This document shows positions 16,800 through 28,911 of a DNA stretch of 32,000 bases, in pieces. Under the pieces are notes generated by a model that was not told where the DNA came from, did not search any database, and was given only the letters and a program-made list of their open reading frames with translations. A program made the translations under genes and the position numbers. The stretch is taken from assembly GCF_000179635.2 (NCBI RefSeq), contig NC_014833.1, positions 840,001 through 872,000 of the forward strand, written 5' to 3'. Origin of the DNA: Ruminococcus albus 7 = DSM 20455. GTDB taxonomy: Bacteria > Bacillota > Clostridia > Oscillospirales > Ruminococcaceae. Positions within the stretch are counted from its first letter, which is position 1, and every line of letters begins with the position of its first letter.

Positions 16800-17296
16800 G
16801 TCTTATCGATGACAGCTATGCTTATCATCGCTGTACTGATTGGGTTAAAATCACTGACCGGCATTTAATTATATAGAGAACAAAATTAAATTTAATACAT
16901 ACCATATCTCAGCAAATGAAAAGATAAAAACTATGGTGAAAACAACAAAGAATAACGGATATGCAAAGCATATAATAAAATGCTATAAAGATGATCAGGC
17001 GTATCGTATCTCGAAAATAATAATACCGGAGATCACTGACTTAGAAGGACGTTCGCAACGGTATTCAGATACTTTATTGAAATACAGCAGTTTAACGGCA
17101 GGCGTGAGGTCTGGACAGAATACGAGGAAACAAAGGCATATTTCCTTGAACTAATGATGTCCACTGAAGGCGAGGATCGTGACCGAGCAGAGTGTGTATA
17201 CATTATACATCTGCGAATTGTTTTTTTATATACTGCGGAAATCTGATGCGGCAGAGGTTTTGATTAAAAAAAATTTAAATTATATTATTAAAATCA

Positions 17297-17325
17297 TTGC
17301 AATTTGAAAAGAAATGTGATATAAT
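17297..17325 (+). promoter_or_regulatory. Near-consensus sigma-A promoter for the GH9 gene
   Basis: -35 TTGCAA (17297-17302), a 17-nt spacer, and an extended -10 TGaTATAAT (17317-17325). This leaves a ~150-nt leader before the ATG at 17481. Confidence 0.6.
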
Positions 17326-17480
17326 ATCTATCGGACATAACAGCGTAATGCTTGTGATGTGAAATGTCCATCCCAATTATAATATGGCTATGACTGTTTC
17401 AGGTATATATGTCGTTTACTGTAAGTTACAGCCGTATCAGATTTAAGTTCTTTTATTTTCAGAAGGAGGGTCAAGAGATA

Positions 17481-20400
17481 ATGCACAAGAAAATGAAACG
17501 TATCGTTGCAGGGCTTGTGGCAATTACCGGTGCTTTATCGGCAACAGCCGCATCTGCACCTATGAGTGTGTTTGCAAAAAATGAACAGATAATTATTCAG
17601 TCTGACTTCAATGCAGGAATGGGTCTTCCCTGGCGCACATTCGAGAATGCACCGGCACGGCAGGACTTCGATATTTCAGACGGCACTTACAATATAACGA
17701 TACAGAATAACGATGGTCCCGAGTCAAGATGGGATCTTCAGTTCCTTTACAAAAATTTCTATATACAAAAAGGTCATACTTACAAGGTACACTGGAAGGT
17801 CAATTCTTCCAATGAGGGTGAGCTGTATACTAGGATCGGTAATTACGGCGGAACTGTTGAAGTTTGGCACAACAACTGCGGCAATGATGATTTCAATCAG
17901 ACGTGGGAATGCGTAAAGATCGCTAAAGGCGACAACACCTTCGATGCTGAGTTTACAGCTAAAGAAGATATGGATCGTGCTTGCTGGATATTTGATTACG
18001 GCGGACAGGGTCAGTATCAGCCGGTAGATTGCTTCCCCAACGGTACGGTCCTCAAATTCGACGATCTGTCTTTGATCGACACTACTTCCGGGGGCTGTAT
18101 AATCGATTTCATTCCTAACGATTGGGGCATTGTAAGACCCGAAAGCAACGTTCGTCTGAATCAGATCGGTTACTATCCTCAGCTGGAAAAGAGGGCTTCT
18201 TATGTTACCGATGCTGATATGCCACTGACTTTTGAGATACGTGACAGATCGGGCAACGTAAAGTACACAGGCAAGACGAAGGTATTCGGCAGCGATCCTG
18301 ATTCGGGTACAGGTAAGGATACAGTTGTTAATTCGGTCACAAGATACAAGGACTCGGGTGCCAACGTACATATCATTGATTTCTCTGATTTCAGAACTGT
18401 GGGCGAGTACACTATATTCGTTAAGGATACAGTCGGCGTAAGCGGCACTCAGGTGATGGGTTCTAAGAAAGTAAACGATACAAGGCTAAGCGGTGATAAG
18501 CTTTTATGGACAAATCCCGTTACTATGAAAACTTATACGATGAACGAGAGCAGTACATTCAGGATAGACAGACAGATCTATGATGATCAGCTGCTGAGGG
18601 ATTCCATGAACTACTTCTATCAGAACCGCTCAGGAGTCCCGATAAAGTCTGAGTACATCACATCAGGTGATAAGTCCGCACTGTCACACCTTAAATATGG
18701 TCATAACCCCGATATGGCTTATGTACAGAGCAAATGGGTAAAGACTTACGAAGATGACTTCTCTGATGGCGAGAAGGATAAGAAGATCGACGTTACAGGC
18801 GGATGGTACGCTGCAAGCGACCACGGTAAGTACGTTGTCGAAGGCGGTTTCTCCGTATGGACACTTCAGAACGCTTATGAGTTCTCCAAGAGGAGCGGCA
18901 ATACTCGCAAGTGGACTGACGGCACTATAGCTGTCCCCGAAAATAAGGATAATGCTCCCGATATACTGGATGAAGCAAGGGTAGAGCTGGAGTGGATGTT
19001 CAAAATGATAAATGAGGACGGCTTTGTATATCATTCAGTGCAGGACTATAAGTGGGCAGATATTCCGATCAGGTTAGGGCCCATATACTGTACGGACCCC
19101 CCAATGGAGTACACTTATCCTTACCGTATCGTCAGACCTCCTACGTATGCAGCCACATTCAACATGATCGCTTGTGCTGCACAGGCTTCACGTCTGTGGA
19201 AGGGCATAGATGATGACTTCGCAAAAGAGTGTCTGCAAAATGCACAGAACAGCTGGAAGGCTATCATGGCTAAGCAGTCCAATTGGAACGTTACAAGTGG
19301 CTATTACTATGATGATCCTTACTTTGCTCCCAGTGAATCCGGCGGAAACAACTTTTTCGGTGACACCTATGTAGTTGACGATGCTTACTGGGCAGCTTGT
19401 GAGCTTTATGCTACAACAGGGGACTCGGCTTACTATGGCTTCTTAAAAAACTATAAAAATTATAATGATCCGTCAGGTCAGGATAAGGCATTCAGCCTGA
19501 CTTCCTGCCTGAGCGGTGGTGAGAACAACGGTTCGTTCGGTTCCTTCAATTGGGGCAATACTGCGGGTCTGGGTACCCTTTCACTCTACCTGAGCGACAA
19601 GACATCTTCTGCTGACAGGAAGACTATTGTCAATTCTATCAAAAATATTGCTGACCAATATATTATTCAGATGAGTAAAGAAGGTATGGGCATACCTTAC
19701 AAGAGTGCGACTGTCGGGGGCTATATCGGTATCGGTGATGGAGATGTGTACACAGGTTATGAATACGGCTCCAACTCATTCGTTATCAACAACGCTATGG
19801 TCCTTGCATATGCTTATGATACTGATAACAGCAAATATATTTATCGGAACGGTGCTGCCGAAGCACTTGATTACCTCTTCGGACGCAACGGTCTGGGCTT
19901 CTCTTATGTATCAGGCTACGGCGATAAGGCAATGAGATCGCCACACCACAGATACTGGGCACAAAGTATTGATCCGTACTTCCCGGCGGCACCCTCAGGT
20001 GTTCTTGCAGGCGGTCCATGCTCAGATCTGTATCATGATAAATATCTTCGTGGTCTCGGCTATAAAAGAGGCACTTTAGCTGATCAGAAGTGCTATGTTG
20101 ACAGTGCAGAGGCATGGTCTGTAAATGATGTTTCCGGCAGCTGGAATGCTCCTCTGGTCTGGATGTCATCATTCATGAACGATCGTTTCGGCGGTCCGAA
20201 ACCAGTCCCCTATCCTACCAACATTAAGGTCGATTACAGTGAGGAGTATCATCAGGTAAGATTTACCTGGAACAAGGTGGAAAACGCTGACAGATACGGC
20301 ATAGCAGTTTATCTGGCAGGCAAGTGGAGAGTTCAGAAACAGGATATCACAGGCACTACCTACACTTCTCCCAAAAATCTGACTCCCGGCGTAACTTATA

Positions 20401-20483
20401 AGGTAGCGATTGCCGCAAGAGTGAACGGCACATGGGATACTGAAAATGCTATCAAACGTGCTTGTACTGTTACTATAAAGTGA
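17481..20483 (+). CDS. Multidomain glycoside hydrolase family 9 protein (signal peptide, CBM4/9-like module, Ig-like CelD_N module, GH9 domain, conserved C-terminal module)
   Basis: ATG at 17481 follows RBS AGGAGGG. Signal peptide MHKKMKRIVAGLVAITGALSATAASA. GH9 signature 1 SYVSGYGDKAMRSPHHR is intact. GGWYAASDHGKY and YVDSAEAWSVNDVSGSWNA are GH9 motifs with substitutions. C-terminus is YHQVRFTWNKVENADRYGIAVYLAGKWRVQ... Confidence 0.9.
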   Translation: MHKKMKRIVAGLVAITGALSATAASAPMSVFAKNEQIIIQSDFNAGMGLPWRTFENAPARQDFDISDGTYNITIQNNDGPESRWDLQFLYKNFYIQKGHTYKVHWKVNSSNEGELYTRIGNYGGTVEVWHNNCGNDDFNQTWECVKIAKGDNTFDAEFTAKEDMDRACWIFDYGGQGQYQPVDCFPNGTVLKFDDLSLIDTTSGGCIIDFIPNDWGIVRPESNVRLNQIGYYPQLEKRASYVTDADMPLTFEIRDRSGNVKYTGKTKVFGSDPDSGTGKDTVVNSVTRYKDSGANVHIIDFSDFRTVGEYTIFVKDTVGVSGTQVMGSKKVNDTRLSGDKLLWTNPVTMKTYTMNESSTFRIDRQIYDDQLLRDSMNYFYQNRSGVPIKSEYITSGDKSALSHLKYGHNPDMAYVQSKWVKTYEDDFSDGEKDKKIDVTGGWYAASDHGKYVVEGGFSVWTLQNAYEFSKRSGNTRKWTDGTIAVPENKDNAPDILDEARVELEWMFKMINEDGFVYHSVQDYKWADIPIRLGPIYCTDPPMEYTYPYRIVRPPTYAATFNMIACAAQASRLWKGIDDDFAKECLQNAQNSWKAIMAKQSNWNVTSGYYYDDPYFAPSESGGNNFFGDTYVVDDAYWAACELYATTGDSAYYGFLKNYKNYNDPSGQDKAFSLTSCLSGGENNGSFGSFNWGNTAGLGTLSLYLSDKTSSADRKTIVNSIKNIADQYIIQMSKEGMGIPYKSATVGGYIGIGDGDVYTGYEYGSNSFVINNAMVLAYAYDTDNSKYIYRNGAAEALDYLFGRNGLGFSYVSGYGDKAMRSPHHRYWAQSIDPYFPAAPSGVLAGGPCSDLYHDKYLRGLGYKRGTLADQKCYVDSAEAWSVNDVSGSWNAPLVWMSSFMNDRFGGPKPVPYPTNIKVDYSEEYHQVRFTWNKVENADRYGIAVYLAGKWRVQKQDITGTTYTSPKNLTPGVTYKVAIAARVNGTWDTENAIKRACTVTIK

Positions 20484-20514
20484 TAGACTTCATTGATCCA
20501 ATTTATTAAAAACA

Positions 20515-20549
20515 AAACGTGGCTGTTGCACCAAGCAACAGCCACGTTT
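20515..20549. terminator. Bidirectional rho-independent terminator between convergent genes
   Basis: A perfect 15-bp stem AAACGTGGCTGTTGC / GCAACAGCCACGTTT with a 5-nt loop. An A-tract lies on the left and TTTCTC on the right. Confidence 0.75.
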
Positions 20550-20638
20550 CTCATATTGTTTAACATATTTTCTGCACAGAACTATTCCAAGGCAGAAACT
20601 CTTCAAGTATATCGGGATCGGTGAAAAACTCCATGCTT

Positions 20639-21052
20639 TTACTGCCTATCAAACCCGTATGCGGTTATTTCCCAAAAACAATGTGCTAATATTGTTGAGT
20701 ATGAATAGTTTTTCAACGTATTAGCATCTATATTATATTGTAAAAAATCCGAGTAATCACAGGCTGCAATAGAATATACCTGATCTTCATCACCGTAATT
20801 GCCTCTGACATCATAATATAGTGATGTATCGTTTTCGTCAAAATGTTCGACATATTCGTCTTCATCTGAATCGCTGATTCTAAAAGCAGAGATATATACA
20901 GTAAATTTCTTATCTGTATGTGCTGCTGTAATAGATAACAGCTTATTATATAGTTCAGCGAATTTATCTATATCCTTATTTCCATAAAACATTTGTATCT
21001 TTTCAGATATTTCAGTAAATGGAGTTTGTCTTAAAATTTCATATATAGTCAT
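20639..21052 (-). CDS. Hypothetical acidic protein
   Basis: 137-aa ORF. Its start overlaps the upstream ORF stop by 14 nt. No family recognised with confidence. Confidence 0.5.
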   Translation of the reverse strand: MTIYEILRQTPFTEISEKIQMFYGNKDIDKFAELYNKLLSITAAHTDKKFTVYISAFRISDSDEDEYVEHFDENDTSLYYDVRGNYGDEDQVYSIAACDYSDFLQYNIDANTLKNYSYSTILAHCFWEITAYGFDRQ

Positions 21053-22011: not shown

Positions 22012-23169
22012 TCATACTTCAGGAAGAGTATCTATCATTCTCAGAATATATTTTCTGACAGCCACAGCATCTGCATCGGTTATGCCATCGCCACTGCCCG
22101 AACAATCAGCGTTTATTTTTCCCTGCTCAGTCAGCTTATACTTTGAAGGTGCTGACAATGTCTGCTTGATAAGTACGAAATCAGAAATATCCACTTTTCC
22201 GTCGCAGTTTGCATCACCATAAACTGCCTTTGGATTATCCGGAATATTGCTCTCTGTTATGGGAGCCATGCTCGGTTCGGTATCACCCCACCAGTCCCAA
22301 CGGTCAGCGGTACGGTATTTCTCCATATTTCCGCCTGCCGAAGTCCAGGTAAACACATTGTCGTAAAGATGCCCTTCGTTATAATAAAACTGTGCCATCG
22401 AACAGATCTCATCAGCATAGGTCTTGTATGCACCATCGTCCTCAGCCATATAGCACCAGCCTGTATTAAAGCCCTTAAGGCTGTTCCTTATGACCTGATA
22501 GCCGTGCATTCCCTCTTCATTAATACAGATCTCAGCAAAGTGGAGTATCTTTCTGATACCCATGTGATTTGAGATTATACAATCATAGAAATTGGATTCC
22601 GTGAAAGAATACTGAAACATCTCAGGGACGTTGTCCTCGGGCATGAACTTGGGATTGCAGTCTGCAAAAGCAGTAACAGCGGTCTGAAGAGTACCATATG
22701 CATGGGCAGAGTTAACACCCCAGCCGTCTTCATAGGCTGTTTCATGGTCTGAGCCTATCTTGCCTTCACCCAGAGTAGATTCACGGGTACCAAGTCCAAG
22801 AAACAAAGCATACACCTTTTCACGTTCCGGTTGGCCAAGACGAGTGGAGATAAGATCCCAGTGCTCATCTATCTCTTTATAGAGAGCGTACTTTACCTCC
22901 TGCACTGTCATATTATGGTTGATAGCGCGTATCTCAGCCGTAGAAGCGTTTGCAGGAGTATTTCTCTCCCCAAAGCCAAGGGGATTGCCAACTCCTTCCT
23001 TCTGTATATCACGGGAAGTATCGTGCAGAGGGTCGCAGGTATTTCCGGCACAATACCATTCGTCTGCCGAAGCAACGATAGAAGTATCCATATCACCTGC
23101 CGATATCGACATTGATGATACGATCATTGCAGCCGCGGTAATGACACCGAAAAATCGTCTTTTATTCAT
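22012..23169 (-). CDS. Secreted dockerin-bearing protein with a possible lysozyme-like/lytic-transglycosylase-like domain
   Basis: The likely start is ATG at 23169 after RBS GAGGTG, with signal peptide MNKRRFFGVITAAAMIVSSMSISA. The C-terminal type I dockerin duplicate is GDANCDGKVDISDFVLIKQ ... DCSGSGDGITDADAVAVRKYIL. The central motifs TRES, AYGTLQ and GFNTGW resemble SLT motifs ES / GLMQ / AYNxG. Confidence 0.75.
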   Translation of the reverse strand: MNKRRFFGVITAAAMIVSSMSISAGDMDTSIVASADEWYCAGNTCDPLHDTSRDIQKEGVGNPLGFGERNTPANASTAEIRAINHNMTVQEVKYALYKEIDEHWDLISTRLGQPEREKVYALFLGLGTRESTLGEGKIGSDHETAYEDGWGVNSAHAYGTLQTAVTAFADCNPKFMPEDNVPEMFQYSFTESNFYDCIISNHMGIRKILHFAEICINEEGMHGYQVIRNSLKGFNTGWCYMAEDDGAYKTYADEICSMAQFYYNEGHLYDNVFTWTSAGGNMEKYRTADRWDWWGDTEPSMAPITESNIPDNPKAVYGDANCDGKVDISDFVLIKQTLSAPSKYKLTEQGKINADCSGSGDGITDADAVAVRKYILRMIDTLPEV

Positions 23170-23303
23170 AAATAACACCTCATGTTTTGAGTCGATTTAC
23201 TGACACGGACAGACCTCTGTCAAAGTGAAATTGAGGTCTGTCCAGATTACCGTTACAAATTATATCACATTTCCATGTAAATTTCAATATGATATTATAA
23301 AAA

Positions 23304-23445: not shown

Positions 23446-23456
23446 CTACTCAGTTA

Positions 23457-24512
23457 TCACTCTACAGTAAAAGTCACAGCGTTTTTGATAGCATTTGCAG
23501 TATCCCATTTGCCATTAACTTTGGCTGCGATAGCTACGTTGTAGGTCTTGCCCGGGGTGAGGTTCTTGGGAGTAGTATATTCTGTATCGGTGATACTCGC
23601 CTCCTGAACTCTCCACTTGCCTGCCAGATAAACAGCTACGCCGTAACTGTCAGCACCATTTACAGCGTCCCAAGTAAATCTCATCTGCTTGTACTGGCTG
23701 TCATATTCCATCTGTATGTTCTTAACGGAATCATCTTTATGATGTCCGCAGTCACAGATGCCTCGTGGATACATATTCATAGAAACTTCAACCTGACCAT
23801 CGCTCTCCCAACCTTCAACGCTGAAAGAAATATCGTACAGGTTCCCCACCTTCATACCCAGGTCCTCCCAAGCCTTGAAGTGTTTGGAAACGCTGATAGT
23901 ACCCTTGGTTCTCGTGTTCTGACGTATGCTTATATACTGTGTGAAATACCTGTCGCCTTCGATGGTATAGGAATTTTTGTTTATAGTATATACCTTGTAC
24001 TCACTTCCGTCAATATTAACGGAACCCTTGTACTGTGCAGAAGCAGACTGCGCAGGTGACCAGTTCTTCCAGTCTTCAATGATGTAGTACTCTACCAGAG
24101 GATTCTGCGCCCAGCCGTAGATACCGATCCTGGCGTTACCGGATGAACCTGCATACCAGATGCAGTCGTAGTCACAGTAGAAATTACCATAGTCCTTGTA
24201 AGTCTTGGGATTATTCAGACCCCAGCGAAGACCACGATTAGTAATGAAGTTTCCTCTCGTGTTGTTAGGACCACACTTCCACTGTGCGCGGAAACCACCG
24301 TCATTTTCGTGCAGTGTCATTGTAGAAGAATTATTGGTATCTGCCTGCCAGATCTCGTGGTGGTAGTCGTTGTACCAGCCGACTTCCTGTGTGTGTGACG
24401 GGCTCGTAGTGAGCGTCTTTGCAGCAGATGCAGTAACTGATGTTATAATAGGTGAAACCATCAGCACACCGGCAACAAGAGCGCCTAAAACACGTTTTGA
24501 AACATTTTTCAT
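23457..24512 (-). CDS. Glycoside hydrolase family 11 endo-1,4-beta-xylanase with conserved C-terminal module
   Basis: Signal peptide MKNVSKRVLGALVAGVLMVSPIITSVTASA after RBS GAGGAG. GH11 hallmarks YGWAQNPLVEYYIIEDW (nucleophile Glu) and SVEGWESDG (acid/base Glu). C-terminus is YKQMRFTWDAVNGADSYGVAVYLAGKWRVQ... Confidence 0.92.
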   Translation of the reverse strand: MKNVSKRVLGALVAGVLMVSPIITSVTASAAKTLTTSPSHTQEVGWYNDYHHEIWQADTNNSSTMTLHENDGGFRAQWKCGPNNTRGNFITNRGLRWGLNNPKTYKDYGNFYCDYDCIWYAGSSGNARIGIYGWAQNPLVEYYIIEDWKNWSPAQSASAQYKGSVNIDGSEYKVYTINKNSYTIEGDRYFTQYISIRQNTRTKGTISVSKHFKAWEDLGMKVGNLYDISFSVEGWESDGQVEVSMNMYPRGICDCGHHKDDSVKNIQMEYDSQYKQMRFTWDAVNGADSYGVAVYLAGKWRVQEASITDTEYTTPKNLTPGKTYNVAIAAKVNGKWDTANAIKNAVTFTVE

Positions 24513-25184: not shown

Positions 25185-25886
25185 TCATCTTGTGATATTA
25201 GCAATAGCGGCGGATATAACATCTTCTACGCCGCAGACTTTATCAATTTTATCCTTGTCGGGAGCATTCCTTAGTTCTGCGATACCTGCTCTCCACAAAA
25301 CCAGAGTATTTACATTCAGTGAATCTATCCGCTGTGACATGGCACTGTTGCGGGTGTACATATCAGATATCATCATAATACCTTGTGATGCTATGTTTGC
25401 CGAGATTACAAGGTCGTTTATTTTTTTATCTGCAAGGATCTGGTAGTATTTCCAGTCGGTATCTTTATCTTTGTTTTTCATATGTTCACTCAATGCGGCT
25501 GATGCTTCATTAAGCTCCTGTATGCAGCACTCCAGCACTTGTTTCATGGTGTCAAGCAGCATATTCTCTTTGTATAGTCCTATGTATATTTCCTGAAAGC
25601 TATCGGATATCCTCTGGGCTTCTTTGTCAGCTTTTTCAGCATTGTCAATGAGTCTTGCGTAGCTTATAGTTCCCACAAATCCCTTGTATTTTGCCAGACC
25701 GTTTATCTTTAGCTGGTCTGAAGCAAGGGTCAGGACATTTATAGCTTTGTCAGGCATCCTATCCTGCTGTATTCTGAATAACATATCTGATGTATCAGCT
25801 ATTCTCTTCTGAACATCTCCTGCATATGAGGGGAGAAGTTCAAAGGTCATCATATCGGGGGTATATTTCTTGGTACTATTCAGCAT
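25185..25886 (-). CDS. Short TelA-like (toxic anion resistance/YaaN-KlaB family-like) helical protein; gene 4 of the operon
   Basis: 233 aa, all-helical in character. ADKKINDLVISANIASQGIMMISDMYTRNSAMSQRIDSLNVNTLVLWRAGIAEL parallels the conserved TelA core (..DKR.HDL..S.Q...Q...I.....N.....KI.S......PLWK.Q..), recalled from memory. Its start overlaps the upstream stop (ATGCTGA). The ORF call is solid; the family call is moderate. Confidence 0.65.
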   Translation of the reverse strand: MLNSTKKYTPDMMTFELLPSYAGDVQKRIADTSDMLFRIQQDRMPDKAINVLTLASDQLKINGLAKYKGFVGTISYARLIDNAEKADKEAQRISDSFQEIYIGLYKENMLLDTMKQVLECCIQELNEASAALSEHMKNKDKDTDWKYYQILADKKINDLVISANIASQGIMMISDMYTRNSAMSQRIDSLNVNTLVLWRAGIAELRNAPDKDKIDKVCGVEDVISAAIANITR

Positions 25887-26770
25887 GACCTGTTCACCTT
25901 AGCAAGCTTGATATACTTATCAAGATCTATCTTCTTAAAAAAATTATAACTGTCACAATTTATATCCTGACCAAATATACCCATCTGAACTGGTGATGAA
26001 ATGACTATATCAGTATCGGGTATATTGAAGATATCACGGAACTGGTCTTCCGTAAGAGGCTGACCATAATAGGGATACCAGTTCTTTTCGTGGAATGACA
26101 TGGACTCCATCACCCTCAGCACGACACGTCGTAAAAACATAACCGAGCACATGGGGTAGAAGCATTTTTTCATATTAATAGGTTCCGACGGGCTTTTCAG
26201 CCTTATCTCGGAGTTGAACACCTCGTCATTGCTGTAGCATGAGCTGAACACTTTAAGGTCAACACCTATGCCGTATTCTTCAAGCAGTTTTATCAGACTG
26301 AGAGTCAGCGCGCCGCGGTTGGTGACTGCCTGCTCTAAGGTGTGAATTGAATATGCCAGATTGAACCATATAGTAACGAATTTTTTCTCTCTTGCTCTTG
26401 TGAGCCTGTACATTGTCTTCGGAGTACCTGCCACGTACGCGGGAATATTTGGGTGAGAGCCTGCCATTGCCTTTTCCTGCCTGCGTCTGTAAGTTCTTAT
26501 CGGCATAGTCTTTTCAAATTCCTTCAGCATTTCCAGTGTAATGTCATAATTACCCGTATATCCGCCGATAAGATAATCTACAGCATTATCAAAGGTATCC
26601 TCGGGAAAATCCGGACGTCTGATGATACTGTGCTGTTTGAGAAATATTTTGTCGTTTACTTTAGGTTTGCTGAGTATATACATCTGCATATCACTCAGAC
26701 TGTTGAACGCCGCATTGTATACAGTCATTTTTTTGTATTGGTATACTTTGAGGTTCATAAATTCTCTCAT
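25880..26770 (-). CDS. Unknown protein, partner immediately downstream of the AAA_5 NTPase; gene 3 of the operon
   Basis: 296 aa. ATGA start/stop overlap with the NTPase gene. No motif I can assign. The strand-helix pattern KKFVTIWFNLAYSIH...RGALTLSLIKLLEEYGIGVDLKVF could be a degenerate vWA/Rossmann-like core without a DxSxS MIDAS. Confidence 0.75.
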   Translation of the reverse strand: MREFMNLKVYQYKKMTVYNAAFNSLSDMQMYILSKPKVNDKIFLKQHSIIRRPDFPEDTFDNAVDYLIGGYTGNYDITLEMLKEFEKTMPIRTYRRRQEKAMAGSHPNIPAYVAGTPKTMYRLTRAREKKFVTIWFNLAYSIHTLEQAVTNRGALTLSLIKLLEEYGIGVDLKVFSSCYSNDEVFNSEIRLKSPSEPINMKKCFYPMCSVMFLRRVVLRVMESMSFHEKNWYPYYGQPLTEDQFRDIFNIPDTDIVISSPVQMGIFGQDINCDSYNFFKKIDLDKYIKLAKVNRSC

Positions 26771-28911
26771 CGTCTTGTTTCTCCGTTTCGTATAGCGTTA
26801 ACTATATTGCTGAACACGCTGAATATCCCGACACTTTTTCTTTCACGACCGTCGTAGAACTTTGCCATTTCTCTCTGTAGAAATGCAAGATATTCGCTGT
26901 CCTTGGTCTCAACGAATTCATATCTGACGATCGCCTCGACATCGTAACTCTGGTGATCAAGGTACTTCTTTATGCTGGTTGCATCACGGGTGGTGAATAT
27001 ACCCGGAGCTGCTGTCTGATTTTCTTTGCTCCATGCAGTGGTGGCATTGCGGAAGACCTCAGCGAATTCAAACCACTGAGGATAATTACAAAGTATGTTC
27101 TCTTCAAGTCTGTTATCGTAATCAACGTATATCGCTGTGAATCTCTGCATGAGAGATTCCTCTATCTTCTCACGGGTGCTGTAATTCCTGTCAGCGCCGT
27201 CACCTGCGGTGTTGCCTGCTGCTATGATACGGAAATTCGGGTGGCGCATTACTCGCTCGCCGTTAGGGAAGCAGTAGCTTGCATTTTTGGAATTGGACAT
27301 AAAGCTGTTGAGTTTTACTGCTGCCCTGATATTGCCATTATCAAATTCATCGCAGAAAACTATACCGCCGTATTTGTATGCTCGGTAGAATGCAGGATAG
27401 TTGTATCCGCCGTCCGCTGTCTGGAATCCCAGCAGGTCATATTCCTCGTTTATGTAGCCGATATCCAGATATTCCAGTCCCAACAGCTTGGCTATCTGCC
27501 CTACAAGAAAAGTTTTTCCGCAGCCGGATGGGCCTATCATATATGGGTTTGAATCTTCGATTACAGCGGTGATTATATCATCGAAATGCTCATGATAAAG
27601 AGTATTGTTTTCATCGATATACTTCTGCTTTTTCTCCATGAGTTTTGCGAACCTGTCTTTGAAGGGATAGGATTCATCAAAGAAGAAATTAGGTGTCATA
27701 TCAGCAGGCTCGGTGCATCTCTGGGCATTTATCTGAACTATGGTTGGGTGCACTCCTGCCGCCACCTGTATTGGTGCGGCAGCTGCTTCAGTTTTTTCGG
27801 CGTCGAAATTTTTGCTGAACTCATCAACGCGTATTATTCTGTTCACCAGATCACTGCTCTTGTTTACCTCTGATATGATATTTTTCAGTTCGCCGTTGTT
27901 AAGCATTGACGAGGCTCTGTCAATAGCTTTGTTTGCCTCCGTGTTTATGCGGAAAAGCTCTGCGGCTGTGTTGTCCTTTATGCCTGAAGCCAACAGTTTA
28001 AGCTCTCTTATCTTACTGTCCGCAGAATCTATGACATCTCTGATCAGCTTATCCTTTTCAAACACTATACTGTCATGTTCTTCGTTCAGAAAAGCATCAA
28101 AAGATTCTTTCAACTTGAATTCCGCATTCTTTGCTTCTCTTGTAAGTTTTTCCGTCTCACTAAGTGTGAGATCCTTGATAGTCTTTTCATTCTGCTCAAC
28201 AAATCTTTTGAAGCTGTCGAGGCGATCTTCTGTAAGGTCGAGAGTGTGCTTTGCGTTCTCAAGGTTTTCCTTGCTGTTTTTCAGCAACATCTCAGACCTT
28301 GCTATCCTTTCTTCACTGATATCGTATATTCCGCAAGCCATTCGCGCATAGCTGAGAAGTTTTTCACATTCGATCTCTTTGTCATGAGCACTGCATATCT
28401 TGATAGCACCGCTTATAAGCGATGAGGCAAAGCTTTTCTCATTGTTGTGGTACTGTCTGAGCTCACAGCTGAAAGTATTGATATAATAGATGTTTTTTTC
28501 TGCTGTTGGTATATCTGCAATGGTGCACATGGTATCGATGTAGATCTGCTTGTCACTGAAACATAAATACATCTCTTTAGTGAACAATCCTGAATGATAG
28601 ATGCCGTCCTTTTCAAATATTTTCAAAAATACTGCATTTGCAAACCTGAAATCTTTGGTTGCTTTTCCGAGAGGAAGTACGGTGCGGTAGATATCCTCTG
28701 CATCTTTCATTATTTCTATAGGCGATTTTTCACTTCGGGAAGTTATAATGCTGTTGACCAGCTTTGAAAGTGTTTCTTCCGAGCCGAATCTGTTTTTATC
28801 GGGCTCCCGCTTTATCTCACTGAGGTATATACTCAGCGGAACATATTTATCGTCCTTTTTTAACGCTGCCTTGACCGCCTGCAATATTGCGTCTATCCTG
28901 TTTTTTGTCAT
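26767..28911 (-). CDS. Coiled-coil-containing AAA_5 (MoxR/McrB-like) NTPase; gene 2 of the operon
   Basis: 714 aa. Walker A GPSGCGKT (27511-27534), Walker B IVFCDEFD (27340-27363), sensor region IIAAGNTAGDGAD (27190-27228) and LMQRF. The N-terminal ~190-aa domain is unassigned. A long E/K/L-rich heptad-like segment covers about aa 195-345 (27879-28329). Confidence 0.85.
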   Translation of the reverse strand: MTKNRIDAILQAVKAALKKDDKYVPLSIYLSEIKREPDKNRFGSEETLSKLVNSIITSRSEKSPIEIMKDAEDIYRTVLPLGKATKDFRFANAVFLKIFEKDGIYHSGLFTKEMYLCFSDKQIYIDTMCTIADIPTAEKNIYYINTFSCELRQYHNNEKSFASSLISGAIKICSAHDKEIECEKLLSYARMACGIYDISEERIARSEMLLKNSKENLENAKHTLDLTEDRLDSFKRFVEQNEKTIKDLTLSETEKLTREAKNAEFKLKESFDAFLNEEHDSIVFEKDKLIRDVIDSADSKIRELKLLASGIKDNTAAELFRINTEANKAIDRASSMLNNGELKNIISEVNKSSDLVNRIIRVDEFSKNFDAEKTEAAAAPIQVAAGVHPTIVQINAQRCTEPADMTPNFFFDESYPFKDRFAKLMEKKQKYIDENNTLYHEHFDDIITAVIEDSNPYMIGPSGCGKTFLVGQIAKLLGLEYLDIGYINEEYDLLGFQTADGGYNYPAFYRAYKYGGIVFCDEFDNGNIRAAVKLNSFMSNSKNASYCFPNGERVMRHPNFRIIAAGNTAGDGADRNYSTREKIEESLMQRFTAIYVDYDNRLEENILCNYPQWFEFAEVFRNATTAWSKENQTAAPGIFTTRDATSIKKYLDHQSYDVEAIVRYEFVETKDSEYLAFLQREMAKFYDGRERKSVGIFSVFSNIVNAIRNGETRR

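What the first reader, a model, noticed from the sequence alone, without database searches (positions are those of the whole stretch)
18798..20150. GH9 enzyme with substitutions at two of the three canonical catalytic positions
The universally conserved GH9 motif GGW(Y/H)DAGDH reads GGWYAASDH here (18798-18824), so the first Asp is Ala and the Gly is Ser. GH9 signature 2 otherwise matches perfectly (Y-V-D-SAEA-W-SVN-x-V-S-GSW-N-A), but Asp (GAT, 20127-20129) stands in place of the catalytic-acid Glu of the NE(V/I)A motif. Signature 1 (SYVSGYGDKAMRSPHHR) is intact, and the gene has a near-consensus promoter. The protein is therefore probably expressed but may be a weakened, mechanistically altered or binding-only GH9. 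The motifs are recalled from PROSITE and the literature, not checked against an alignment.
Basis: partly seen in the sequence, partly recalled or inferred. Interest (0 to 1): 0.55.

Follow-up and report, generated by a model that had tools for sequence, protein, structure and literature searches.

The report
Cellulase paralogue with a rewired active site
This Ruminococcus albus 7 gene encodes an intact, selectively maintained family-9 cellulase copy that has lost two of its three catalytic-centre residues plus several sugar-binding residues; its strain-8 counterpart, which has the same two changes, has been assayed and is only a weak cellobiose-releasing enzyme.

Summary
The ORF at 17481-20483 (+) is the R. 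albus 7 GH9 protein ADU21299.1, with modules signal peptide, CBM4_9, Ig-like, GH9 and CBM37. Alignment to C. thermocellum CbhA (1ut9/1rq5, E 1e-103) fixes the correspondence: D383->Ala444, G385->Ser446, D386 = Asp447 (kept) and E795->Asp883.

These changes define an R. albus-specific clade of 46 full-length sequences, with two paralogues in several strains. Its sister clade is the canonical Cel9B/Ra3055-like group. Within the clade the acid position is polymorphic (E31/D12/G3), while the base Asp is invariant.

The clade evolves faster and under weaker constraint than its sister. GH9 dN/dS is 0.29-0.53 against 0.13-0.22. It is not decaying: no stop codons are seen where about 86 are expected under neutrality, and the promoter and RBS are invariant.

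The R. albus 8 orthologue, matched exactly by published cloning primers, is Ra1589. It carries the same Ala and Asp and was reported as a weak, poorly expressed cellobiohydrolase. That paper does not discuss the substitutions.

Best reading: an attenuated, remodelled GH9 hydrolase. About 20% of related cluster representatives also have degenerate triads; the named ones are Ruminococcus sp. MAGs.

The parts
17297..17325 (+). Sigma-70-like promoter: TTGCAA, 17-nt spacer with TG (extended -10), TATAAT
   Evidence: Invariant in all 7 aligned strains/paralogues. Pattern match only; the transcription start was not mapped.
17326..17480 (+). About 155-nt conserved leader ending in RBS AAGGAGG (17463-17469)
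   Evidence: the whole aligned upstream block, window 17198-17490, has 91% mean column identity and the RBS is invariant. No Rfam match. Folding energy is not unusual, z = -0.10.
17481..20483 (+). CDS of 1000 aa plus stop: R. albus 7 GH9 protein ADU21299.1 / WP_013497482.1 / UniProt E6UI46
   Evidence: ORF; 100% identity to P0001; accessions.
17481..17576 (+). Predicted Sec signal peptide (residues 1-32, ...SVFA|KNEQ)
   Evidence: Read from the sequence. The Ra1589 cloning primer starts at the equivalent EDEQ residue, after the predicted signal peptide.
17586..17852 (+). CBM4_9 module (Pfam match to residues 36-124; the module probably extends to about residue 210)
   Evidence: PF02018, E 1.3e-7. 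dN/dS within the clade is 0.29-1.14.
18138..18500 (+). Ig-like CelD_N module (residues 220 to about 340)
   Evidence: PF02927, E 1.5e-19. Aligns to the CbhA Ig module.
18588..20165 (+). GH9 (alpha/alpha)6 module, residues 370-895
   Evidence: PF00759, E 5.9e-80. CbhA E 1e-103. AF2 pTM 0.90, Foldseek best hits 1ut9/1rq5, target-normalised TM 0.86-0.87.
18798..18824 (+). Region I motif GGWYAASDH (canonical GGWYDAGDH). Ala444 at 18810-18812 replaces CbhA D383. Ser446 at 18816-18818 replaces G385. Asp447 at 18819-18821 is the retained catalytic base D386.
   Evidence: In the clade: 444 = A39/S6/G1, 446 = S27/N16/T3, 447 = D46/46.
19350..19358 (+). Asn624 (CbhA G553) and Phe626 (CbhA Y555), both GH9-conserved substrate-binding positions
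   Evidence: The binding-residue list comes from PMC5651568. Canonical clade G and Y in 91/91; degenerate clade N43/S3 and F46/46.
19764..19766 (+). Tyr762 replacing the conserved binding Trp (CbhA W678)
   Evidence: Y in 46/46 of the clade against W in 91/91 canonical sequences.
19902..19952 (+). GH9 signature 1, SYVSGYGDKAMRSPHHR, intact. His822 and Arg824 correspond to CbhA H737 and R739.
20127..20135 (+). Asp883 (GAT) in place of the catalytic acid Glu (CbhA E795), and Ser885 in place of T797
   Evidence: In the clade: 883 = E31/D12/G3, 885 = S46/46.
20196..20480 (+). C-terminal fn3-like module of about 95 aa, called CBM37 in the R. albus 8 orthologue
   Evidence: fn3, weak, E 1.2e-3. PMC5066209 assigns CBM37 to Ra1589. 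The coding DNA is 75-79% identical to the 3' end of the GH11 gene at 23455-23695.
20514..20550 (.). 16-bp GC-rich hairpin between the convergent genes. It was called as a terminator only on the - strand.
   Evidence: Homology with other strains' copies ends at 20519.

Best explanation
The gene encodes a secreted enzyme, probably tethered by its CBM37 module, that is a diverged paralogue of the R. albus CbhA-like cellobiohydrolase Cel9B/Ra3055. It is best read as an attenuated inverting GH9 hydrolase with a remodelled active centre.

Asp447 (the equivalent of CbhA D386) is still available as the general base. The carboxylate that normally helps hold the nucleophilic water (D383) is replaced by Ala444. 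In this strain the general acid is the shorter Asp883 instead of Glu.

Four conserved sugar-binding residues are also changed: G553N, Y555F, W678Y and T797S. The expected result is slow release of cellobiose from cellodextrins and amorphous cellulose. That is what was reported for the strain-8 orthologue Ra1589.

Shown here: the residue correspondence, the clade distribution, the relaxed but persistent selection, and the identity with Ra1589. Inferred: that Asp447 and Asp883 perform the residual catalysis, and that the strain-7 protein behaves like Ra1589.
For: Residue mapping to CbhA comes from the HMMER alignment and a script. The fold agrees.

All 46 full-length clade members lack the first Asp, and all keep the base Asp.

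The R. albus 8 orthologue P0144 has GGWYAANDH and NDVSGSWNAPL. It is Ra1589: the published forward primer matches L003 exactly and uniquely among the 25 loci fetched, and the reverse primer matches exactly once one T dropped from the stored text is restored.

The paper reports that Ra1589 releases cellobiose from G3-G6, PASC and Avicel, with a temperature optimum of 30-45 C and a pH optimum of 6-7. Ra3055 was 'far superior', and Ra1589 expression on PASC was very low (PMC5066209).

Constraint is relaxed. GH9 dN/dS is 0.29-0.53 against 0.13-0.22 in the canonical sister clade. The p-distance to an outgroup is 0.411 against 0.326. Active-site positions are variable within the clade in 6 of 12 cases, against 34 of 165 other canonically invariant columns (Fisher p = 0.03).

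The gene is nevertheless maintained. No nonsense codons are seen where about 86 are expected under neutrality, and the promoter and RBS are invariant.

The roles of the two Asp residues and the Glu are taken from PMC6032398 and PMC5651568.
Against: No assay exists for the strain-7 protein. The published Ra1589 activity is described only qualitatively in the text I could read (0.5 uM enzyme, 10 min to 16 h), and the paper describes no catalytic knockout of Ra1589, so a contaminating activity is not formally excluded.

The acid position tolerates Gly in three clade members, and the first Asp position varies (A/S/G). This pattern fits a site no longer selected for catalysis.

The dN/dS comparison is confounded, because the degenerate-clade pairs are much less diverged (dS 0.06-0.19) than the canonical pairs (dS 0.3-0.7). 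Low divergence inflates dN/dS.

Expression of the orthologue was near the detection limit.
Confidence: 0.6

Rival explanations
1. The protein is effectively a non-catalytic pseudo-cellulase. The GH9 cleft is kept as a cellodextrin- or cellulose-chain-binding module on the cell surface, anchored by CBM37. Any residual hydrolysis is incidental.
For: Catalytic-centre positions are polymorphic inside the clade: 444 A/S/G, 446 S/N/T, 448 H/N/Y, 883 E/D/G, 888 W/L. Active-site columns are enriched for variability (p = 0.03). dN/dS is raised in the GH9 and CBM4_9 modules but not in CBM37. The ORF is still strongly maintained. Triad-degenerate relatives recur in this subfamily: the named ones are Ruminococcus sp. 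MAGs, and 6 of 9 scanned have the full architecture with dockerins.
Against: Ra1589, which has the same Ala and Asp, was reported as active, including in 10-min assays used for pH and temperature optima. The base Asp447 and the binding residues W691, E681 and H822 are conserved. No binding data exist.
Confidence: 0.2
2. The protein has a new function. The remodelled cleft (N624, F626, Y762, S885, Q521, E454 and a polar residue at 446) adapts the enzyme to a different substrate or a modified mechanism. For example, Ser/Asn/Thr446 could hold the catalytic water in place of the lost Asp.
For: Many replacements are fixed in 46/46 clade members, and position 446 is always polar (S/N/T) while 444 is always small (A/S/G). 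The lineage accelerated after duplication. GH9 includes xyloglucanases and glucosaminidases among its structural neighbours.
Against: Only cellulosic substrates were tested for Ra1589, and it acted on them, weakly. Fixation in 46/46 is weak evidence at this low divergence. No dN/dS above 1 was seen. No coordinates were available to test whether residue 446 or 454 reaches the active site.
Confidence: 0.15
3. The gene is a decaying copy (incipient pseudogene), or the apparent substitutions are a misalignment or sequencing artefact.
For: dN/dS is raised and expression of the orthologue is very low.
Against: There are no stop codons in six sequenced copies where about 86 are expected under neutrality. 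dN/dS is below 1 for the whole gene and for the GH9, Ig-like and CBM37 modules; only one CBM4_9 pair exceeds 1 (1.14). The promoter and RBS are invariant. The same substitutions appear in 46 independent sequences from isolates and metagenomes. The motif alignment to CbhA is unambiguous.
Confidence: 0.05

Closest known systems
Ruminococcus albus 8 Ra1589 (EGC04798.1 / UniProt Q6GVN0, 'processive endocellulase'), characterised in Devendran et al. 2016, Sci Rep 6:35342
   Same: It is the orthologue: 86% identity in the matched region. It has the same modules (CBM4_9, Ig, GH9, CBM37), the same Asp1->Ala and Glu->Asp, the same F626, Y762 and N624, and the same promoter and leader.
   Different: It has Asn rather than Ser at the Gly position (GGWYAANDH). 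It sits in a different genomic context. The paper does not discuss its catalytic residues.
R. albus 8 Ra3055 and the canonical sister clade P0013-P0025 (probably Cel9B; the name is from my memory of Devillard 2004, which I could not read)
   Same: Same architecture and same C-terminal module. About 67-70% identity. It is the closest canonical relative and the presumed donor of the duplication.
   Different: It has the canonical GGWYDAGDH and NEVT motifs and all conserved binding residues. It is highly active (kcat 71.5 s-1 on G4) and highly expressed. Its GH9 dN/dS is lower.
Clostridium thermocellum CbhA / Cbh9A (PDB 1ut9, 1rq5) and CelK
   Same: It is the best solved-structure match (E 1e-103; target-normalised TM 0.86-0.87). 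It shares the Ig-GH9 unit, the exo-loop residue E606, and W616, H737 and R739.
   Different: The catalytic D383 and E795 and the binding residues G553, Y555, W678 and T797 are replaced here. The NCBIfam CelK equivalog scores 449 bits against a cut-off of 1700. The C-terminus carries CBM37 rather than CbhA's own C-terminal modules.
Other triad-degenerate CbhA-like GH9 proteins (the named ones are Ruminococcus sp. MAGs; e.g. P0170, P0177, P0183, P0202)
   Same: Same subfamily and architecture. One or more of the Asp/Asp/Glu residues is lost while the ORF is kept.
   Different: They are independent lineages (at least 6 changes by parsimony). Most have also lost the base Asp and/or the Glu entirely, and 6 of the 9 scanned carry dockerins rather than CBM37. 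None is characterised as far as I could find.

Membership tests
Glycoside hydrolase family 9 (Pfam PF00759 / CAZy GH9) | Significant sequence match to the family profile and the (alpha/alpha)6 fold | tested here: met
   PF00759 E 5.9e-80, 270 bits against a cut-off of 27.7. AF2 model pTM 0.90; best Foldseek hits are GH9 structures, TMt 0.86-0.87.
Glycoside hydrolase family 9 | Region I DAGD motif (PROSITE PS60032 as quoted in PMC6032398): N-terminal supporting Asp, Gly, and C-terminal catalytic-base Asp | tested here: not met
   The motif reads A-A-S-D. The supporting Asp and the Gly are replaced and the base Asp447 is kept. The [APTNS] position of the pattern is Glu454.
Glycoside hydrolase family 9 | Signature 1 with His-x-Arg (PS00592; pattern recalled from memory, residues checked against CbhA H737 and R739) | tested here: met
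   SYVSGYGDKAMRSPHHR; H822 and R824 align to H737 and R739.
Glycoside hydrolase family 9 | Signature 2 with the catalytic-acid Glu (PS00698; CbhA E795) | tested here: not met
   Asp883 (GAT) stands at the Glu column. All other positions of the motif match.
Glycoside hydrolase family 9 | Beta-1,4-glucan hydrolysis | not testable with these tools
   Only the orthologue Ra1589 has been assayed. It showed weak cellobiose release from G3-G6, PASC and Avicel (PMC5066209).
CbhA/CelK-type cellobiohydrolase (NCBIfam NF049990 equivalog) | Score above the curated equivalog cut-off | tested here: not met
   449 bits against a cut-off of 1700.
CbhA/CelK-type cellobiohydrolase | CBM4_9, Ig-like, GH9 module order, and a conserved exo-loop residue (Cbh9A E606) | tested here: met
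   Pfam order CBM_4_9, CelD_N, GH9. E681 aligns to E606 and is present in 46/46 clade members.
R. albus CBM37-bearing secreted enzymes | C-terminal CBM37 module | tested here: inconclusive
   The libraries searched returned no CBM37 match. The module gives only a weak fn3 hit. The orthologue's module is called CBM37 in PMC5066209. Its coding DNA is 75-79% identical to the 3' end of the neighbouring GH11 gene.
Pseudoenzyme (catalytically dead homologue) | Loss of essential catalytic residues together with loss of activity | tested here: inconclusive
   Two of the three catalytic-centre residues are replaced, but the orthologue with the same replacements was reported as weakly active. The strain-7 protein has not been tested.

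The most novel reading that the evidence does not exclude
The R. albus clade may be one instance of a broad, undescribed class. This class would be CbhA-like GH9 modules that have repeatedly lost the Asp/Asp/Glu centre yet are kept intact under selection with their CBMs, dockerins or CBM37. They would act as non-catalytic or minimally catalytic chain-binding subunits of the ruminococcal cell-surface or cellulosomal machinery. In the survey here, the loss arose at least 6 times and affects about 20% of the 138 nearest 50%-identity clusters.
Probability: 0.3. Interest if true: 0.65.

Novelty: new variant of a known kind. Interest (0 to 1): 0.45.

Why it matters

This is a natural, selectively maintained GH9 lineage in a model rumen cellulolytic bacterium that lacks the supporting Asp, often lacks the acid Glu, and has changed four conserved binding residues. 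A published orthologue still shows some activity. That makes it a ready-made system for asking how much of the GH9 catalytic apparatus is dispensable.

It also bears on genome annotation. Counting 'GH9 cellulases' in rumen genomes and metagenomes probably overstates catalytic capacity if about one in five related clusters is triad-degenerate.

Finally, it offers an explanation for why Ra1589 was so much weaker than Ra3055, which the original paper left unexplained.

Tried and rejected
1. Same-genome control genes for dN/dS. The flanks of the gene are not syntenic between strains; homology covers only 17198/17223-20519. No neighbouring gene could serve as a divergence-matched control, so I used within-gene module contrasts and a metagenomic canonical clade instead.

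2. Mapping ADU21299 to a Rumal_ locus tag, in order to read its expression in the R. albus 7 RNA-seq paper. The main text and the one supplement held give no usable table. A search for the accession numbers found no paper.

3. Quantitative mutant data for T. fusca Cel9A D55/D58/E424 and the CbhA structure paper. Neither is held. I relied on secondary descriptions in PMC6032398 and PMC5651568.

4. A regulatory RNA in the conserved 155-nt leader. There is no Rfam match and the fold is not unusually stable (z = -0.10). Rejected.

5. Literature on triad-degenerate or non-catalytic GH9 in ruminococci. Four differently worded searches found nothing relevant. This covers the open-access library only.

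6. Whether Glu454 or Ser446 could reach the active site. Model coordinates are not exposed by the tools, so this was not testable.

7. The longer ORF start at 17409. Rejected in favour of 17481 because of the RBS, the conserved MHK start in all copies, and the NCBI model.
Full report
THE OBJECT. The finding lies in one long ORF, 17409-20483 on the + strand. The real start is ATG 17481. It is preceded by AAGGAGG at 17463-17469, and every other copy of the gene starts with the same MHK.... The 1000-aa product is identical to Ruminococcus albus 7 protein ADU21299.1 / WP_013497482.1 / E6UI46 on a 3,685,408-bp contig. Pfam gives CBM_4_9 (residues 36-124), CelD_N Ig-like (220-277), Glyco_hydro_9 (370-895, E 5.9e-80) and a weak fn3 hit (912-985). 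In the R. albus 8 orthologue this last module is called CBM37 (PMC5066209). Residues 1-32 look like a Sec signal peptide.

CHECK OF THE OBSERVATION. Bases 18798-18824 encode GGWYAASDH, and 20127-20129 are GAT within AWSVN-D-VSGSWNAPL. The best solved relative is C. thermocellum CbhA (1ut9/1rq5, E about 1e-103). In that alignment tGGWYAASDHgkyvv lies on tGGWYDAGDHgkyvv, and awsvNDvs lies on swstNEit. The E795Q mutant structure 1rq5 shows NQ at exactly this column. Converting chain index to CbhA numbering (+207) gives D383->Ala444, G385->Ser446, D386 = Asp447 (kept) and E795->Asp883. An AlphaFold model of residues 215-905 (pLDDT 83.4, pTM 0.90) finds CbhA as its best structural match, with target-normalised TM 0.86-0.87. 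According to PMC6032398, the C-terminal Asp of DAGD is the catalytic base and the N-terminal Asp an essential supporting residue. PMC5651568 describes the two Asp plus Glu as the conserved catalytic triad. Signature 1 (SYVSGYGDKAMRSPHHR) is intact, and H822 and R824 align to CbhA H737 and R739.

I mapped the Cbh9A substrate-binding residues listed in PMC5651568 onto the window protein. Four more GH9-conserved positions are replaced: G553->Asn624, Y555->Phe626, W678->Tyr762 and T797->Ser885. W473, W616, H737, R739 and the exo-loop residue E606 are kept. Across the GH9 module, 35 of 218 columns that are at least 97% conserved in 91 canonical ruminococcal homologues carry a different residue in this clade. 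These include Asn454->Glu, Lys519->Ser and His521->Gln.

DISTRIBUTION. A search of 5.8 billion proteins gave 1138 hits. The twelve closest (84-100% identity, R. albus isolates 7, 8, SY3, KH2T6 and AR67, plus rumen MAGs and metagenomes) all lack the first Asp. Every hit from 70% identity down to about 55% has GGWYDAGDH and NE(V/I)T. With cluster members added, 46 full-length sequences form the clade:
- Position 444 is A39/S6/G1.
- Position 446 is S27/N16/T3.
- The base Asp447 is present in 46/46.
- The acid position 883 is E31/D12/G3.
- Phe626, Tyr762 and Ser885 are each present in 46/46.

So Asp1->Ala is the clade character, while Glu->Asp is a polymorphism shared by strains 7 and 8 and some others. 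Several genomes carry two copies. R. albus 7 also has ADU21058.1 (GGWYAANDH / NEVSVSLNASL), and AR67 and KH2T6 also have two. The canonical sister clade (P0013-P0025) is the Ra3055-type enzyme: the Ra3055 cloning primers encode GQQLGQ... and ...VVTVKVK*, and its E882A primer encodes WSVN(E>A)VTINW.

EVOLUTION. I extracted coding DNA from the window and five genome loci of the clade, and from five canonical-clade contigs. Nei-Gojobori dN/dS for the GH9 module is 0.29-0.53 in the degenerate clade (dS 0.06-0.19) and 0.13-0.22 in the canonical clade (dS 0.3-0.7). Low divergence inflates dN/dS, so the contrast is not clean. However, within the same gene pairs CBM37 stays at 0.12-0.38 while GH9 and CBM4_9 (0.29-1.14) are raised, which is the reverse of the canonical order.

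The degenerate clade is also further from an outgroup of 78 canonical sequences than its sister clade is (GH9 p-distance 0.411 against 0.326), indicating acceleration after duplication. Inside the clade, 6 of 12 canonically invariant active-site positions vary, against 34 of 165 other canonically invariant columns (Fisher p = 0.03).

The gene is not decaying. With 4.5% of single-base changes creating stops and a minimum-spanning dS length of 0.635, about 86 nonsense substitutions are expected under neutrality in six copies, and none is seen. The promoter-like TTGCAA-17(TG)-TATAAT at 17297-17325 and the RBS are invariant in seven copies. Homology between strains covers only 17198/17223-20519, that is, the gene with its promoter, and the flanks differ. 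dS also differs strongly between modules, which suggests recombination between copies.

EXPERIMENTAL EVIDENCE FROM THE LITERATURE. Devendran et al. 2016 (PMC5066209) purified the three CBM4_9-Ig-GH9 proteins of R. albus 8. The Ra1589 forward primer (SI Table 1) matches locus L003 (R. albus 8 contig NZ_ADKM02000008.1) exactly, and only that locus among the 25 fetched. The reverse primer matches exactly at the stop codon once one T, evidently dropped in the stored text, is restored. The encoded protein P0144 (EGC04798.1, Q6GVN0) has GGWYAANDH and NDVSGSWNAPL, the same two catalytic changes as the window protein.

[quoted passage not shown] Ra1589 had optima of 30-45 C and pH 6-7. It was barely transcribed on PASC, whereas Ra3055 was clearly expressed. 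The text I read does not discuss catalytic residues of Ra1589. The phrase 'catalytic residues' occurs once, in a reference title.

MECHANISM. Most likely (about 0.6) the protein is an attenuated inverting hydrolase. Asp447 acts as the base, Asp883 as a short general acid, and no carboxylate supports the water at position 444. The cleft also has altered -/+ subsite contacts. The rivals are:
- a mainly binding role (about 0.2), favoured by the polymorphic ex-catalytic positions, including Gly at the acid site;
- a new specificity or compensated mechanism (about 0.15), suggested by the many fixed replacements and the always-polar residue 446;
- decay or artefact (0.05 or less), which the data above argue strongly against.

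WIDER SURVEY. HMMER against 1.84 billion 50%-identity representatives gave 2747 hits. I aligned the best 150 to a GH9 profile. Of the 138 representatives with all three triad positions aligned, 28 (20%) are non-canonical. On a neighbour-joining tree the trait needs at least 6 changes and forms all-degenerate clades of 9, 6, 5 and 3 clusters. The named members are Ruminococcus sp. MAGs. Nine were scanned, all keep Ig-GH9, and six have dockerins. Within the first search a second such group was already visible, with NGWYES.. in place of GGWYDAG... I found no paper describing this, but only open-access literature could be searched.

VERDICT. The 'weakened enzyme' reading is supported through a characterised orthologue. 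The protein itself is annotated, and its orthologue is published as a weak cellobiohydrolase, but the degenerate catalytic centre, its clade-wide distribution and its recurrence in related clusters (named ones Ruminococcus sp.) appear not to have been described. I rate it a new variant of a known kind, of moderate interest.

Noticed in passing
Not in the window: R. albus 7 ADU21058.1 (P0157). Also L002/L005 (strain AR67) and L001/L006/L010 (strain KH2T6).: R. albus 7 carries a second paralogue of the same degenerate clade (995 aa, GGWYAANDH, NEVSVSLNASL). It keeps the Glu but changes the conserved Trp of NWNAP to Leu. AR67 and KH2T6 also have two copies.
   Followed up: partly
window 17198-20519, compared with L001-L007: Homology between strains and paralogues covers only the gene plus about 260-280 bp upstream and 36 bp downstream; the flanks are unrelated. 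Synonymous divergence differs several-fold between modules of the same pair (for example Ig dS 0.4-0.5 against GH9 0.13-0.18). This suggests the gene moves or recombines as a cassette, with gene conversion between copies.
   Followed up: partly
window 17326-17480: The roughly 155-nt leader between the promoter-like site and the RBS lies in an upstream block (17198-17490) with 91% mean column identity across seven copies. It has no Rfam match and no unusual predicted stability.
   Followed up: yes
window 22012-23178 (-) and 23457-24512 (-): Two more fibrolytic genes lie downstream on the opposite strand: a GH124 (Cel124_C) protein with a dockerin, and a GH11 xylanase with a C-terminal fn3-like (CBM37-type) module. 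The coding DNA of that module (23455-23695) is 75-79% identical to the CBM37 region of the GH9 gene copies.
   Followed up: partly
P0082, P0094, P0095, P0099, P0102, P0105, P0109, P0111, P0116, P0117; 28 of 138 representatives: Other CbhA-like GH9 lineages have degenerate catalytic centres; the named ones are Ruminococcus sp. MAGs. Examples are NGWYES(A/G/D)(D/N/T)H, and motifs such as EADS, ETES and SGDS in which an acidic residue sits one position earlier. Many have also lost the acid Glu. Six of nine scanned carry dockerins.
   Followed up: partly
window protein residues 527-545, 619-624, 747-753 and 867-881 (nt about 19059-19115, 19335-19352, 19719-19739, 20079-20123): The only AlphaFold segments with pLDDT below 50 are loops around the cleft: the +1/+2 loop after W525, the loop before F626, a clade-specific insertion, and the stretch just before Asp883. 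These are also the most variable loops within the clade.
   Followed up: no
window 25185-28911 (-): Three adjacent genes encode a TelA-like protein, a DUF7192 protein and a 714-aa AAA_5 (dynein-related/McrB-like) ATPase. This may be a stress or defence module.
   Followed up: no
window 20514-20550: A 16-bp GC-rich hairpin lies between the convergent GH9 and DUF6557 (20639-21052, -) genes. The scan calls it a terminator only for the minus-strand gene. The inter-strain homology of the GH9 cassette ends at its edge.
   Followed up: no
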